Virus record (IMG/VR): IMGVR_UViG_2872185964_000007
Source of the DNA: a virus
Lineage: Duplodnaviria; Heunggongvirae; Uroviricota; Caudoviricetes
Direction: 5' to 3' (one strand)
DNA: 43,521 nt
This document shows, piece by piece, positions 23,280 through 27,767 of this stretch. Made by a program: the position numbers and the translations under genes. The notes under the pieces are model-generated. The model ran no database searches. It saw only the letters and a list, made by a program, of their open reading frames with translations, and had not been told where the DNA came from. Every line of letters starts with the position of its first letter. Within the stretch, counting starts at the first letter, position 1.

Positions 23280-26200
23280 TCAGCTGATACTGATGCCTGC
23301 GGTGGCTTTCTTCATCACCACAACCAGCAAATCGCTGATACTTGCTGTGGGATACCAGTTATTCACCAGCCATGCTGATACCGAAAACTCCAGCGTCATG
23401 TGACCGTGACCGGCAGGCATATCAATAACGCCACTGTAAATCAGCGTATTATCCAGCGCGGTACGGTTATAAATTTCAGCACCGTTTTTCCGCACTATCA
23501 GACGGCATGAGGAGTAAATATCAGTATGCTCTCTCTCATGCTTAGCGCCGCTGAATGCCACCGCCGGAATAACAATTTGCCGGTCAAAAGGCTGATCGTC
23601 ATAAATCCTGACGGTAACGGTCCCTGATGGCCACCGCTCCGGTGCCCGGGAGTCCCGCGGAAAAGCCTTACCCACTGTTTTAACGAGATCGCCTTCAATC
23701 TGGTTCGCGGACAGTTTTCCCAGAACCCGGCAGTTCTCGTTAATCGTGACGTTGTTGAGCGTCCCGGAGTTCGCATTCACGTTACCGCTGATATCAGCAT
23801 TTCTTGCGGTCAGCCTGCCCTCCGGCGTCAGGGAAAACGTCGGGGATTGCCGGACGAGGTGATACTCACCGCAAACAGCCGCTTCAGGAACACATCGTTC
23901 ATGAACAACTGATTCCCCTGCGCCACAAATAACGGCGTGGTGTTGCCGTCCTCCGGGTTAATCATCGCAATACGGTCAGCCAGCAGCAGTATGTTGCTCA
24001 GGGGCTGGCCATCAGTATCCTCAATCCCCGCTCCAATACCGGCAACATAGGGTATGCCATTTTTTGTTTTCTGTACCTTCAGCATGTAAAGTGCAGCAAG
24101 GTCATCATTTGTGTCCTTCTGCACGCGCTGTATCTGCTGTATGGTGGCGCTCTGCTCCTCCAGCGTTTTACTGACCGTCTGTGTGATTTCATTGCGGGTT
24201 TCGGTGATGGTGGTCTTCATCTCCGCCATCTCATCCGCAAGCTGGCTGTTGTCTATCAGCTCCCACAGCCCCTGAGCCAGATGCAGTTTTCCTATTTTTT
24301 CCCGAAACAGCCCCAGATACCCTTCTGCATCATTGCTGGCCCGTCCACTGGCCTCCACAAAAGCAGATTTCCCCACCAGGTTGACGCTGCGCACGTAAAA
24401 CCAGAAATCCTTCCCGGGCTTAATGTGCGGGCCGGATACACTCCACTGACTGCCGGTCCCCAGATAACGGGCAGAGGTTTCCACCTGAGATGTGTCTGCG
24501 ATTTTTGCCTCCGAAAACCAGAGCTCAAACTGTACCGTCGGGTCATACACCGCAAGACGCGGTACCGCTGTTATCTGAAAATACCCCGGCGTCAGTTCAA
24601 TGGTGGCGGGTTTTGCTGGCGCGTTAATCCGGAAGGTGGTAGTGGCCGGTTCGCCCTGCTGGCCATAACTGTTAATTGCCCTGACTGTCAGGGTGTATTC
24701 CCCGAGCGGCAGACCACTGAAACGATGCTCTGTATCCGCAGTGATAGCGGTGGTCACCAGACGGCTGTCTTCTCCGCTTCCGCTGGTCAGTCGCAGACTG
24801 AAGCGCACCCCTTCACCACCCGCGGCGTGTCCCATTTCGCCTGTGCCAGATACTGGCCGTCAGCTGCGCTCACCTCCACCGTCAGGTGCTGCACTGCCGG
24901 TGGGATGACGCTGTTCAGGGAGCCTGACTGCGGCTCAAAGCGGGCACCGTTATCCACGATGGCTTCTTTTTCCGGTACGTGCTGCACCGCCGTGATGGCA
25001 AAGGTGCCGTCCGTGTTTTCCCGGACGGAGACACAGCGGAACAGGCGACGGCGCAGTGACGGCAGGGAGAGTCCCCACACCCCGTATGTCTCCACACCAT
25101 CAGGCAGGGTACTGACCTGTATCCGGTCCGGCGCGGGGTGTGCGGTGATGTCCACACTCACCGGCTTACCGCTGCCGTTAATCAGGTTCACCGCCGATGT
25201 ACCTGTCTCCGGCAGGGTAACCTCACGGTCCAGCGTCAGGGTGCGGGTGGCAGCATCAATGGACAGGACACGTCCGCCGGTCAGGGTCCCGGCATAGTCA
25301 TTATCACAGATTTCAATAATGTCACCGGGTGTGTGCCGCAGCCCCTGAGACCCGAGCGTGAAGTCCACCGTCTGCGTTTCCAGCAGTTCGGTCTTTATCA
25401 CCCACAGTCCGGCACGGTGGGCCTGACCGCGGCTGGTACAGCCGAACGCGTCCATCTTCAGCAGATTGCGCCCGTAGCGCAGTATGGCTTCCGGGTCTTC
25501 CACCAGTTCCGTGGAGGTCTGCCAGCCGTTCTGCGGGTCGGTGTAATTCACCTCCACCGCCGTGTGCCGGTCCTTCAGGGCACTGAAGCTGTAGCGGAAC
25601 CCCACGCCGTTATCATCCACCACCACATCGCTGTTGGTGTACGGCCACACCACATCCGACAGGCGGTCCTGAACAAACGTCAGCATCTGGCCGTTCCATA
25701 CCGGCATACAGCGCATCGCAGAGCAGAAATCACTGAGAACGTCCCACGCCTTACGCTGTTGTGCCAGGTACGCATTAAAGGTCATCCGCGGCTCGGTCCC
25801 CCCGAAACCATCCGGGACCGTCTGGTCGCAGTACTGCCCGATGGCATACAGCGCCCACTTGTCCACATCCGCCGCCCCCAGACGTTTTCCCATGCCGTAG
25901 CGCGGGTGAGTCAGCATGTCCCACAGGCACCAGGCCGGGTTGTTGCTGTATGCCGGTTTCAGACTGCCGTCCCAGATACCACTGTACGTGCGTTTTTCCG
26001 GGTCATAGTTTGACGGCACCTGGATGATGCGACCGCGGATATGGTAGTTCACCGTCATCTGCTGACCACCAAACTGCTCCGCATCCACCTGCATCCCCAC
26101 AATGGCCGTGTTCGGGTAGCACTGTTTCACATCGATGATTTCGGTGTATGACGACCACAGCGTCTTATTCTGCAGCTGGTCCGTGGTGCTGTCCGCCGTC

Positions 26201-26751
26201 TCCCTGACCATCCGGATGTTAAAGGGCCGGGGAGGCAGATTATCCAGAATCACCGAGGCCAGGAACTGTGAGGTGGTCTTGCCGTTAATGGTGACGTCCT
26301 TTTCCGTCACCCAGCGGCCATTACGCTGTAACTGAATCAGAATCCGGACAGAGGAAGGATTACGGTCGCCCTTTGACGTGGTCTGCACCAGTGACTGCAC
26401 CCCGAAGGTAACCCGCAGGCGGTCAATGTTCGCGGACGTAATGGTGCGCGTCACCGGTTTTGCCTTCGTCACTTCCACGCCCAGTCCGGTTTCAGCTCCG
26501 GAGGACTCAAAGCCTTCCGGTGGTGTCTGCTCCTGCTCCCCGGCGCGCCAGACCGCCGTCACACCGTGTATCACGGGATTGCCGTCCGTGTCCGTCAGTG
26601 GGGTTTTGTTCACCAGAATACTCTGCAGTCCCTTCACCGGACCTTCTATCGGTCCCTCACCAATCGCATCAATCACACTCATCATCTGCGTGGATTTGAG
26701 ATTATCCTTCGCCTCACGAGGCGTGTGTGCCTTACCGCCACCTTTTCCCAT
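23280..26751 (-). pseudogene. Tail tip/host-specificity protein J (lambda J-like), split into three ORFs
   Basis: N-terminus MGKGGGKAHTPREAKDNLKSTQ matches lambda J; frame breaks near 24808-24811 (C-run) and ~23780-23830. Confidence 0.85.
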
Positions 26752-26851
26752 ACAGCCTTCCCCTGAATAAATTAACCGCCACTTGCCATTCCGTACAGAA
26801 GTCGGATATCCTTCGCCCGAAAAGCATGAAACACATTTCTGCCATGCTAAA

Positions 26852-26888
26852 GAAAACCCGGTATCAGCAGATACCGGGGTTTTCTTTC
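26852..26888. terminator. Bidirectional intrinsic terminator-like hairpin in the I-J gap
   Basis: 9-bp stem CCCGGTATC/GATACCGGG with AGCA loop, A-tract upstream and T-tract downstream. Confidence 0.55.
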
Positions 26889-26954
26889 ATGCCCACCGAT
26901 AATCCTGTTGGTTAAAACCGGTAATGGCATAAAAATTCTGAATATCTTCACATT

Positions 26955-26982
26955 TTCACACACTGACTGTGGCGCTTATAAT
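26955..26982 (+). promoter_or_regulatory. Sigma70-like promoter: TTCACA, 16-bp spacer, TATAAT
   Basis: Read directly; perfect -10 hexamer, 5 of 6 match at -35. Confidence 0.45.
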
Positions 26983-26988
26983 TTCGCT

Positions 26989-27086
26989 GCGTTAGTGTTT
27001 TTTTGCCCGAGTAACAAAAACAACTCCTTCACATTGATCTTCATTTGTCTGTCCCCGCAGCTCCGCGATCACTGCGGGATTTTTTT
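26989..27086 (+). ncRNA. Candidate ~100-nt small RNA (moron) antisense to the tail operon
   Basis: Predicted start ~7 bp after the -10; ends at hairpin CCCGCAG...CTGCGGG (27054-27078) followed by ATTTTTTT; no credible ORF. Confidence 0.4.
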
Positions 27087-27767
27087 ATGTTTTATCCCTG
27101 TCGCCCGATAACCACGACCTTTCCGCCCCGCCTTCATCACGGGTGCTGATGTCCTGGGATATACGGCGGGAGCCAACCAGCATTTCCCCGTAAGGCACCG
27201 GCATCGGGTTCCCCTGGGCAATCATGTTATCCAGCGAGGAAAAGTACGTGTTCTGTCTGCCGTTATCCGTTGCGCGGTAATCCGGTGTTTTTGCCTTCGG
27301 GCCAGCATCTGGGCCACACCGCCCAGAATCATGCTGGCTCCAAGTGAAAACAGCATCGTGGTGGCAGAAAAACCACCGGCTGCCAGGGCTGAACCCATAA
27401 CGCCATTGATGCCCCGGCAGTGAAGAAAGAGCCCACGATGGCTGCCGCCCCAACACAATCTGCAGTCCACCCTTTCCGGCCCGGCCAGTCGCGGCACAAT
27501 GTGGATGACCGTTCCCTCACCCAGCTGTTCGTGAAGACGGGCATACACCGCCTCCGGTGCCGTGTCATCACCGGCAATACGTATCTGGTACCAGCCTTCG
27601 TTCATCTGACGGCGAAAGCCCGGCATCTGCATCGACAGGGCGCGAATGGCTTCCGCTGCCGTGTTCACATACAGGCTGAGGCGGCGGCCAAATCGTTGTA
27701 AATCCCCGTGAAGGCAGATGCGTGCCAGTGGCGGTGACGCCAGACAGAATGCGTTCGTCGTTGCCAT
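27085..27767 (-). pseudogene. Tail assembly protein I (lambda I-like), multiple frameshifts
   Basis: N-terminal, middle and C-terminal thirds fall in three ORFs (27222-27767, 27329-27577, 27085-27456). Confidence 0.75.

What the first reader, a model, noticed from the sequence alone, without database searches (positions are those of the whole stretch)
26752..27086. 333-bp insert between tail genes I and J carrying a promoter-plus-terminator unit: candidate prophage sRNA moron
In lambda, I and J are essentially contiguous; here a 333-bp non-coding insert separates the I stop (27085) from the J start (26751). On the strand opposite the tail genes it has a near-consensus promoter (TTCACA, 16-bp spacer, TATAAT; 26955-26982), ~90 nt without a credible ORF or RBS, and an intrinsic terminator (stem CCCGCAG/CTGCGGG, 27054-27078, then ATTTTTTT). 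A second, bidirectional hairpin terminator (26857-26878) insulates the unit. The predicted RNA has a C/A-rich stretch (GAGUAACAAAAACAACUCC), the kind of sequence bound by GcvB-type sRNAs, so a regulatory or sponge RNA is plausible. Whether it matches any reported prophage sRNA cannot be judged without a search.
Basis: partly seen in the sequence, partly recalled or inferred. Interest (0 to 1): 0.6.

Follow-up and report, generated by a model that had tools for sequence, protein, structure and literature searches.

The report
Known prophage small RNA PasB

Summary
The tool scan finds the promoter TTCACA-16-TATAAT (26955-26982), the intrinsic terminator (27054-27078 plus T7) and the bidirectional hairpin (26857-26878).

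The right-hand unit (26938-27100) is 100% identical to the pasB locus of EPEC E2348/69. The published 83-nt PasB maps to window 27004-27086 (+). PasB was Northern-validated, drops strongly without Hfq, has 37 RIL-seq interactions, and is about 100-fold more abundant than the silent flanking I and J genes.

At about 80% identity the same unit is EcOnc22/23/24 of EHEC Sakai Sp15/Sp14/Sp11: Hfq-CRAC peaks, a ~85-nt Northern band, and RNase E-CLASH hybrids.

The sRNA-moron reading is therefore supported. The GcvB-sponge idea is not: there is no CACAACA motif and pairing is no better than shuffled controls. A small ORF on the tail strand shows no coding signature.

Additions from this work:
- The papers I read do not link PasB to EcOnc22-24; they belong to one diversified family (63 unit variants; 1813 of 5426 complete E. 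coli genomes).
- Some prophages carry tandem arrays of 2-4 units between I and J.
- The J-proximal hairpin has a counterpart in lambda, so it is probably ancestral.
- "I stop 27085" results from a single-base homopolymer deletion.

PasB's targets and physiological role remain unknown.

The parts
26752..27084 (.). I-J intergenic region as it reads in this window (333 bp). It consists of a J-proximal module (26752-26928) and the pasB unit (26938-27086).
   Evidence: 99.4% identical to Sakai prophage Sp12 between ECs_2235 and ECs_2236.
26938..26960 (+). Conserved promoter-upstream block CTGAATATCTTCACA with the -35 hexamer TTCACA (26955-26960). It contains the inverted repeat TGAA-N4-TTCA.
   Evidence: The -35 hexamer is invariant in almost all of 63 unique units; mean majority fraction 0.85 for 26941-26960.
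26977..26982 (+). -10 hexamer TATAAT, 16 bp from the -35. The predicted primary start is about 26989-26991.
   Evidence: In variants it reads xATAAT or TATCAT, but GTGCAT in one array subfamily.
26993..26998 (+). TAGTGT, a second -10-like TAnnnT element, invariant as T-A-N3-T in all variants. It lies 6-7 nt upstream of the mapped mature 5' end.
   Evidence: Alignment. The position relative to the PasB 5' end comes. A promoter role is inferred, not shown.
27004..27086 (+). PasB sRNA, 83 nt as annotated in EPEC E2348/69 (NC_011601.1 1466343..1466261). Homologue of EcOnc22/23/24.
   Evidence: Table S6 of PMC8550237. Direct mapping and 100% identity (alignment A3). The Northern probe is the reverse complement of window 27059-27081.
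27013..27024 (+). AAC AAA AAC AAC, an (ARN)4 motif and candidate Hfq distal-face binding site.
   Evidence: Sequence. A-rich ARN-like runs recur at this place in other variants although the sequence differs. ARN motifs were reported for Hfq in PMC4104026. The role is inferred.
27022..27044 (+). Conserved single-stranded core AACTCCTTCACATTGATCTTCAT, which includes the anti-Shine-Dalgarno-like CUCCUU. Probable seed region.
   Evidence: Unpaired in the MFE fold. Mean majority fraction 0.84, against 0.69 and 0.57 in the flanking segments. This is the part of EcOnc22-24 found in CLASH hybrids. Zhu et al. place the PasB seed just upstream of the terminator.
27054..27086 (+). Rho-independent terminator: stem CCCGCAG/CTGCGGG, 11-nt loop, then A and U7. 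Expected Hfq proximal-face site.
   Evidence: In the consensus fold of 19 diverse variants, 7 pairs are kept and 2 show compensatory changes, e.g. CCCACAG/CTGTGGG in ECOR29.
26857..26878 (.). Perfect 9-bp hairpin CCCGGTATC-AGCA-GATACCGGG with T-runs on both sides (bidirectional terminator-like). Positional counterpart of the I-J hairpin of lambda and of Sp15-type junctions.
   Evidence: Lambda hairpin. Sp15-type hairpin in alignment A1.
26752..26928 (.). J-proximal module specific to the Sp12/window type. It carries no annotation anywhere. It holds a weak + strand promoter-like site (TTGCCA-18-TATCCT, 26783-26812) and the hairpin above.
   Evidence: Present in 1446 of 5426 genomes, always at 95% identity or more, with no annotated feature under it. 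Promoter-like site. Function unknown.
26976..27044 (-). Spurious 22-codon ORF (MKINVKELFLLLGQKNTNAAKL*) on the tail-gene strand, antisense to PasB.
   Evidence: The ATG is lost in 21 of 63 unit variants, ORF lengths run from 10 to 41 aa, and poly-A length varies. Among 39-41-aa versions, variable columns by codon position are 14/19/19.
27085..27767 (-). Tail assembly gene I, broken here by five 1-nt homopolymer deletions. The intact stop corresponds to 27092-27094.
24787..26751 (-). 5' part of host-specificity gene J (654-aa ORF). J continues in other frames downstream.

Best explanation
Window 26938-27086 (+) is the pasB gene. It is a self-contained moron inserted between the stop of tail gene I and the ancestral I-J hairpin of a lambda-like prophage.

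- Transcription. In the lysogen, where the late tail operon is silent, host sigma-70 RNA polymerase transcribes it from its own promoter (TTCACA-16-TATAAT). Transcription runs against the direction of the tail genes and stops at the CCCGCAG/CTGCGGG-U7 terminator just before gene I.
- Product. The RNA is an 83-nt Hfq-dependent sRNA (27004-27086). Either it is trimmed from a roughly 97-nt primary transcript, or it starts at a second -10-like element, TAGTGT.
- Action. Hfq most likely holds it through the 3' U-tail and the (ARN)4 tract. The single-stranded conserved core (27022-27053, containing CUCCUU) then pairs in trans with host and accessory mRNAs.

Shown by others on an identical sequence: the RNA exists, its size, its dependence on Hfq, many Hfq-mediated RNA partners, and expression independent of I and J.

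Inferred here: the promoter assignment, the Hfq contact sites, the seed region, and the regulatory outcome. The physiological role is unknown.
For: 1. Identity with PasB.
- Window 26938-27100 is 100% identical to E2348/69 PP6 (A3).
- PasB coordinates 1466343..1466261 map to window 27004-27086.
- The PasB Northern probe AATCCCGCAGTGATCGCGGAGCT is the reverse complement of window 27059-27081.

2. Published data on PasB (PMC8550237).
- Northern blots corroborated the sizes of the Pas sRNAs; PasB is listed at 83 nt.
- Its RNA-seq differential-expression values (supplementary Table S2, which I read as the delta-hfq versus wild-type comparison) are log2FC -6.8 in the activating and -2.4 in the non-activating condition.
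- It has 37 RIL-seq interactions.
- BaseMean is 482/1082, against 4.8 for I and 15 for J.

3. Homologues EcOnc22/23/24.
- They lie in the I-J gaps of Sakai Sp15, Sp14 and Sp11 on the anti-tail strand.
- The Northern band is about 85 nt and is destabilised in delta-hfq. The probe maps just 5' of the terminator.
- RNase E-CLASH hybrids contain GCCUGAAAAAUAACUCCAUAACGUUAAUCUUCA.

4. Conservation fits a promoter, seed and terminator design. The -35, the core and the terminator arms are conserved, while the 5' U-run/A-rich part is variable. The terminator shows compensatory pairs.

5. The promoter and terminator are found by the scan.

6. The unit is widespread: 1813 of 5426 complete E. coli genomes, up to 11 places per genome.
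Against: - No experiment was done on this window's strain.
- The 5' end is unresolved. The TATAAT box predicts about 26989, PasB is annotated from 27004, and CLASH fragments of the homologues start at the equivalent of 27005.
- The MFE of the RNA is not lower than shuffles (z = -0.74). Apart from the terminator, no structure is conserved.
- The Sp12 copy itself was not listed among the Hfq-CRAC peaks of Sakai.
- Targets are low-count in CLASH (1-2 hybrids per partner in the rows seen), and none has been validated.
- The RNA is perfectly antisense to the I-J junction of the late mRNA, so a cis role cannot be excluded.
- Rfam 15 has no model that matches it.
Confidence: 0.92

Rival explanations
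1. PasB acts mainly in cis as an antisense RNA. It pairs with the I-J junction of the late tail-operon mRNA, either of its own prophage or of related co-resident or superinfecting lambdoid phages. This triggers cleavage or blocks J expression. The variable 5' part and the tandem arrays would give specificity against different phages.
For: The RNA is fully complementary to the tail-strand transcript; the cis site is by far the best duplex in the window at -68.8 kcal/mol, against a mean of -11.4. The unit always sits at the same place, between the I stop and the J-proximal hairpin. Arrays of 2-4 divergent units exist. Minus-strand RNA from the I 3' region is present in EHEC CLASH data.
Against: Hfq dependence and 37 RIL-seq partners elsewhere in the genome point to trans action. 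No I/J partner appears in the stored part of the RIL-seq table, although that file was cut when stored and the tail genes are silent under those conditions. No induction experiment exists. Phages carrying the unit are inducible, for example ASU11.
Confidence: 0.12
2. The insert is, or was, a protein-coding moron. A small protein of 22-41 aa (MKINV...NVKxFRNFIPS) would be encoded on the tail-gene strand between I and J, and the + strand signals would be incidental.
For: An ATG with a GGGGA/GGGAGA Shine-Dalgarno-like sequence is present in 42 of 63 variants. ORFs of 39-41 aa ending at the same place occur in four sublineages. Some of the first differences between types are synonymous. Gene callers annotated small ORFs here in phages ASU11 and PhiR12_1.
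Against: The ATG is replaced by ACG or deleted in 21 of 63 variants. ORF length ranges from 10 to 41 aa, and poly-A length changes shift the frame. Variable columns by codon position are 14/19/19, with no third-position excess, and the middle of the peptide is not conserved. The conserved C-terminus coincides with the PasB promoter. In this window the ORF stops after 22 codons inside the TATAAT box. The flanking tail genes are near-silent in lysogens while the opposite strand is abundant.
Confidence: 0.03
3. The RNA is an anti-sRNA (sponge) for GcvB, like AgvB, acting through its C/A-rich stretch.
For: The stretch GAGUAACAAAAACAACUCC is C/A-rich. Prophage anti-sRNAs against GcvB exist in EHEC (AgvB, PMC4104026).
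Against: There is no CACAACA consensus. The duplex with GcvB R1 is -16.2 to -21.0 kcal/mol (z = -0.65 to -1.45 against shuffles), while AgvB gives z = -2.3 (the GcvB sequence was recalled from memory and only partly checked against primers). The stretch is replaced by unrelated A-rich sequence in EcOnc22-24 and other variants. AgvB lies at the PR' moron site, not between I and J.
Confidence: 0.03

Closest known systems
PasB (pathogenicity-associated sRNA B) of EPEC O127:H6 E2348/69, prophage PP6 (Pearl Mizrahi et al. 2021, PMC8550237; Zhu, Shabalina & Storz 2026 preprint, 10.64898/2026.05.13.724894)
   Same: The sequence is identical over the promoter, the RNA and the terminator (window 26938-27100). 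The position between tail genes I and J and the strand opposite the tail genes are the same. It is the same gene.
   Different: The J-proximal half of the gap differs: E2348/69 has the Sp15-type hairpin module, whereas this window has the Sp12-type module (A3). Nothing is known about expression in this window's strain.
EcOnc22 / EcOnc23 / EcOnc24 of EHEC O157:H7 Sakai prophages Sp15, Sp14 and Sp11 (Tree et al. 2014, PMC4104026; Waters et al. 2017, PMC5286369)
   Same: Same I-J location and strand. Same -35, same terminator stem, same conserved core (AACUCC.UAAC.UUAAUCUUCAU). Hfq-bound, about 85 nt, destabilised without Hfq.
   Different: About 80% identity. The 5' U-run/A-rich segment is different and 6 nt shorter, and the -10 is AATAAT (A1). 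The papers I read do not link PasB with EcOnc22-24: Table S6 of the 2021 paper lists EHEC homologues for PasA and PasD only, and the 2026 preprint has no occurrence of 'EcOnc'.
AgvB / AsxR anti-sRNAs of EHEC prophages (Tree et al. 2014)
   Same: Prophage-encoded, Hfq-binding short RNAs with their own promoter and terminator, carried as non-coding morons.
   Different: They lie downstream of PR' near stx or other moron genes, are 51-60 nt long, share a different conserved 3' domain, and sponge GcvB or FnrS. No sequence similarity, and no GcvB consensus in this RNA.
Lambda I-J junction (J02459 15445-15504)
   Same: Same gene order K-I-J. A hairpin followed by a U-run on the tail strand lies upstream of J.
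   Different: Lambda has only 60 nt and no sRNA unit.

Membership tests
PasB sRNA | Sequence match to the 83-nt PasB of E2348/69, including the site of its Northern probe | tested here: met
   100% identity across 26938-27100 (A3). PasB maps to window 27004-27086. The reverse complement of the probe equals 27059-27081.
PasB sRNA | Location in a lambdoid prophage between tail assembly gene I and host-specificity gene J, opposite in direction to them | tested here: met
PasB sRNA | Own promoter and Rho-independent terminator with a U-tract | tested here: met
   Both are conserved across 63 variants.
PasB sRNA | Expressed as a discrete roughly 83-nt RNA whose abundance depends on Hfq | not testable with these tools
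   Shown in EPEC on an identical sequence. Not shown for the strain this window comes from.
EcOnc22/23/24 family (EHEC) | Homology to the Hfq-CRAC peak and Northern probe region in the I-J gap of Sp11, Sp14 and Sp15 | tested here: met
   About 80% identity over the unit. The probe and CLASH fragment align to window 27005-27057.
Moron (Juhala et al. 2000 sense) | Extra DNA between conserved phage genes, with its own promoter and terminator, expressed from the repressed prophage | tested here: met
   Lambda has a 60-nt gap without the unit. Promoter and terminator. In EPEC, pasB is about 100-fold more abundant than I and J.
AgvB-type anti-GcvB sponge | GcvB R1 target consensus CACAACA and stable pairing with the GcvB seed | tested here: not met
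   Motif absent. Duplex energy within the shuffle range. The stretch is not conserved.
Any Rfam family | Covariance-model hit at the gathering score | tested here: not met
   0 hits in the whole window. Best sub-threshold hits are 22.9 and 21.3 bits, against gathering scores of 52 and 40.
Small-protein moron or type I toxin on the tail strand | Conserved start codon and reading frame, with a codon-position substitution bias | tested here: not met

The most novel reading that the evidence does not exclude
PasB is only one allele of a large, diversifying family that includes EcOnc22-24 and always sits at the I-J junction. The promoter, core and terminator are fixed, while the 5' segment is hypervariable. 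In some prophages, recombination has stacked 2-4 different alleles in tandem.

The most novel reading not excluded is that these RNAs serve inter-phage competition. Each allele would pair with the I-J junction of the late mRNA of related phages and interfere with production of the tail tip protein J, in addition to or instead of regulating host mRNAs.
Probability: 0.1. Interest if true: 0.6.

Novelty: already known. Interest (0 to 1): 0.2.

Why it matters
PasB is one of the most widespread prophage sRNAs of E. coli and is often the only Pas sRNA in non-EPEC/EHEC strains. Its targets and role are still unknown.

For this scan the practical result is that the finding is a correct rediscovery and can be annotated as pasB.

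The modest added value is threefold:

- PasB (EPEC literature) and EcOnc22-24 (EHEC literature) are one family. Data from RIL-seq, CRAC and CLASH can therefore be pooled to define a seed and targets.
- The family is much more diverse than the "few nucleotide differences" reported for PasB, and it forms tandem arrays.
- The unit has a fixed insertion point relative to an ancestral I-J hairpin.

Tried and rejected
1. AgvB/AsxR identity. I first suspected AgvB because of the GcvB remark. AgvB lies at the PR' site and has a different sequence, so I rejected this.

2. Rfam. The gathering search of the whole window and a permissive search of 26650-27200 gave nothing meaningful.

3. Coordinates of EcOnc22-24. 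In the current Sakai record they seemed to fall on the J-proximal hairpin. This was resolved by finding a shift of about +136 nt between the genome version used in 2014 and NC_002695.2, using the CLASH read sequences.

4. Small ORF on the tail strand. It looked promising because of synonymous-looking changes and an in-frame 6-nt indel. Start-codon loss, length variation and the codon-position count ruled it out.

5. A conserved 5' hairpin (U-run against A-run). It is not recovered by RNAalifold and not consistently by single-sequence folds.

6. Trans targets inside the window. A duplex scan of both strands gave only the cis-antisite as an outlier.

7. Taxonomic range. My 17-base pattern for the species-representative genomes was too short for 596 Gb and returned mostly chance hits. 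The true hits were Escherichia albertii and three tiny, probably contaminant contigs. Divergent relatives outside Escherichia could have been missed.

8. First viral scan. It failed because I wrote the loop one base too long.

9. svsR and HnrS. These other prophage sRNAs lie at the cI 3' end and elsewhere in Sp9, Sp10 and Sp12. They are unrelated to this locus.

Full report
**Observation**

- A + strand promoter TTCACA-16-TATAAT lies at 26955-26982, with 11 of 12 matches.
- A + strand intrinsic terminator follows: stem CCCGCAG 27054-27060 / CTGCGGG 27072-27078, then A and T7 at 27080-27086.
- A perfect 9-bp hairpin at 26857-26878 has T-runs on both strands.
- J starts at 26751 on the minus strand.

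Two details need correction.

- Gene I in this window carries five single-base deletions relative to intact I of Sakai Sp12 and E2348/69. All five are in G or C homopolymers. The stop at 27085 is therefore a frameshift artefact. The true stop corresponds to 27092-27094, and the gap in intact relatives is about 340 bp.
- Lambda's I and J are 60 nt apart, not contiguous.

**What it is**

The 361-bp query is 99.4% identical to E. coli O157:H7 Sakai prophage Sp12, between ECs_2235 (J) and ECs_2236 (I). It occurs in about 1600 of 5426 complete E. coli genomes. The right-hand 172 bp alone occur in 1813 genomes, with a median of 2 and up to 11 places per genome, at 75-100% identity.

Two literature trails converge on this unit.

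*Trail 1: EcOnc22-24 in EHEC.* Tree et al. 2014 (PMC4104026, Table S2) list three homologous Hfq-CRAC peaks, EcOnc22/23/24, on the + strand of Sakai prophages Sp15, Sp14 and Sp11.

- The Northern band is about 85 nt and is destabilised in delta-hfq.
- All three lie in the I-J gap, opposite to the tail genes.
- Their gap aligns with the right half of this window's gap at about 80% identity (A1).
- The Northern probe and the RNase E-CLASH fragments from Waters et al. 2017 place the RNA exactly on the promoter-terminator unit. This holds once a shift of about 136 nt between genome versions is taken into account.

*Trail 2: PasB in EPEC.* Pearl Mizrahi et al. 2021 (PMC8550237, Table S6) describe PasB in EPEC E2348/69 at NC_011601.1 1466343..1466261, 83 nt, in prophage PP6.

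- I fetched that locus. Window 26938-27100 is 100% identical to it (A3).
- PasB maps to window 27004-27086.
- The published probe is the reverse complement of window 27059-27081.
- Northern blots corroborated the sizes of the Pas sRNAs.
- PasB's RNA-seq differential-expression values in supplementary Table S2 are log2FC -6.8 and -2.4. I read this table as the delta-hfq versus wild-type comparison; the stored excerpt did not state the contrast.
- It has 37 RIL-seq interactions.
- It is about 100-fold more abundant than the flanking I and J genes: baseMean 482/1082 against 4.8 and 15.

Zhu, Shabalina and Storz (2026 preprint) found 1,158 PasB hits. [quoted passage not shown] The finding is therefore the known sRNA gene pasB.

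**Anatomy and conservation**

I collected 120 IMG/VR loci and 8 E. coli loci and extracted 167 units, of which 63 are unique.

- Conserved: the block CTGAAnnTCTTCACA with the -35 hexamer, the -10 (xATAAT), a GCGTTA motif, the core AACTCC(T/A)TAAC(G/A)TTAATCTTCAT, both terminator arms and the T-run.
- Variable, with indels: the U-run/A-rich segment and the few bases before the terminator.
- Only the terminator is a conserved structure, with two compensatory pairs. No consistent 5' hairpin is predicted, and the MFE is unremarkable (z = -0.74).

A-rich ARN-like runs recur at this position in other alleles although the sequence differs.

The 5' end is unresolved. The TATAAT box predicts a start near 26989. 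PasB is annotated from 27004, and CLASH fragments of the homologues start at the equivalent of 27005. A TAnnnT element (TAGTGT, 26993-26998), invariant in all 63 variants, sits 6-7 nt upstream of that end. The mature RNA is thus either processed or started from a second promoter.

**Alternatives tested**

*GcvB sponge.* There is no CACAACA motif. The predicted duplex with GcvB R1 is within the shuffle range, while AgvB stands out. The GcvB sequence was taken from memory and partly checked against published primers. The stretch is not conserved. This reading is not supported.

*Protein-coding remnant.* A minus-strand ORF (MKINV...) starts in the conserved core, and some alleles have 39-41-aa versions.

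- The ATG is lost in 21 of 63 alleles.
- Lengths range from 10 to 41 aa, and poly-A length shifts the frame.
- Substitutions show no third-position excess: 14/19/19.
- The conserved C-terminus is simply the PasB promoter read backwards.

This reading is rejected. The ORFs annotated here in phages ASU11 and PhiR12_1 are probably gene-caller artefacts.

*Cis-antisense role.* The RNA is perfectly complementary to the I-J junction of the late mRNA, and nothing excludes an effect during induction. Hfq dependence and many distant partners nevertheless make trans action the main reading.

**Additions from this work**

1. PasB and EcOnc22-24 are alleles of one family. The papers I read do not make this link: Table S6 of 2021 gives EHEC homologues for PasA and PasD only, and the 2026 preprint contains no 'EcOnc'.

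2. The family is far more diverse than the near-identical variants analysed for PasB.

3. The I-J gap comes in discrete size classes: about 230-247, 333-338, 412-416, 469, 704-706 and 900-947 bp. The long classes are tandem arrays of 2-4 different promoter-sRNA-terminator units.
   - One unit type in these arrays has a different terminator, CTCCCGT...ACGGGAG.
   - The units are separated by spacers that look like 3' fragments of gene I. This points to stacking by recombination between prophages.
   - Two such arrays are in complete chromosomes.

4. A hairpin with a U-run on the tail strand lies upstream of J in lambda, in the Sp15 type and in this window. The 26857-26878 hairpin is therefore probably an ancestral junction element, and the pasB unit is inserted between the I stop and that hairpin.

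5. The J-proximal module of this window (26752-26928) is a uniform block with no annotation, found in 1446 genomes. Its function is unknown.

**Verdict**

The GcvB idea is not supported. The element is already known as PasB, a homologue of EcOnc22-24, so interest is low. The role of PasB remains open. The family-wide view, and the speculative idea of inter-phage antisense interference, are the only parts with some novelty.

Noticed in passing
window 27085-27767 (gene I), 23828-26751 (gene J), 26857: Gene I has five 1-nt deletions, all in G/C homopolymers, relative to Sakai Sp12 and E2348/69. J is split into ORFs of 654 and 335 aa. The 26857 hairpin lacks one C compared with Sp12. The pattern suggests homopolymer undercalling in an error-prone assembly rather than real gene decay.
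   Followed up: partly
L032 (905-bp gap), L127 (947 bp), L076, L129, L058, L103: In some lambdoid prophages the I-J gap holds tandem arrays of 2-4 different promoter-sRNA-terminator units. One unit type has a different terminator (CTCCCGT..ACGGGAG). The spacers between units resemble 3' fragments of gene I (..ISVAEDRKYQAGFKG*).
   Followed up: partly
L127 positions ~30-90 of the gap; also L103, L076 and Sp15-type gaps: A 7-nt tandem repeat (GTCTGAT) lies just upstream of the J start and varies from 2 to 8 copies between prophages.
   Followed up: no
window 26993-26998: TAGTGT: a T-A-N3-T pattern is invariant in all 63 unit variants and lies 6-7 nt upstream of the annotated PasB 5' end. It may be a second -10 element, or a motif at the 5' end of the primary transcript.
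   Followed up: partly
window 26940-26959: The inverted repeat TGAA-N4-TTCA overlaps the -35 hexamer and is conserved in most variants. It could be an operator for an unknown regulator. PasB is reported to be higher in the non-activating growth condition.
   Followed up: no
window 26752-26928: The J-proximal module is present in 1446 of 5426 genomes at 95% identity or more and carries no annotation. On the + strand it has a weak promoter-like site (26783-26812), a small hairpin (AGCATG/CATGCT) and the 26857-26878 terminator, so it could be a second, diverged sRNA-like unit. A sub-threshold Rfam hit to STnc310 (21.3 bits) covers the hairpin.
   Followed up: partly
L219 (lambda J02459 15445-15504): Lambda's 60-nt I-J gap contains a hairpin CCGCC/GGCGG followed by UUUUGUCAUUU on the tail strand. 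It is the likely ancestral counterpart of the J-proximal hairpins seen here.
   Followed up: partly
L137 (Asaia platycodi, 546-bp contig), L148 (Parendozoicomonas haliclonae, 460 bp), L164 (Streptomyces flavalbus, 3.4 kb): Very short contigs in assemblies of unrelated bacteria carry the PasB/EcOnc22 unit at 90-100% identity. This is most likely contamination with E. coli or phage DNA.
   Followed up: no
L215 (phage ASU11 gp9c), L216 (phage PhiR12_1, 32-aa CDS): Hypothetical proteins are annotated inside the I-J gap of deposited phage genomes. They overlap the PasB unit or the J-proximal module and are probably spurious gene calls.
   Followed up: partly
Sakai coordinates in PMC4104026 and PMC5286369 versus NC_002695.2: Published EcOnc coordinates are shifted by about 135-137 nt relative to the current RefSeq record around 2.17-2.90 Mb. 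Used naively, they put EcOnc22-24 on the wrong feature.
   Followed up: yes
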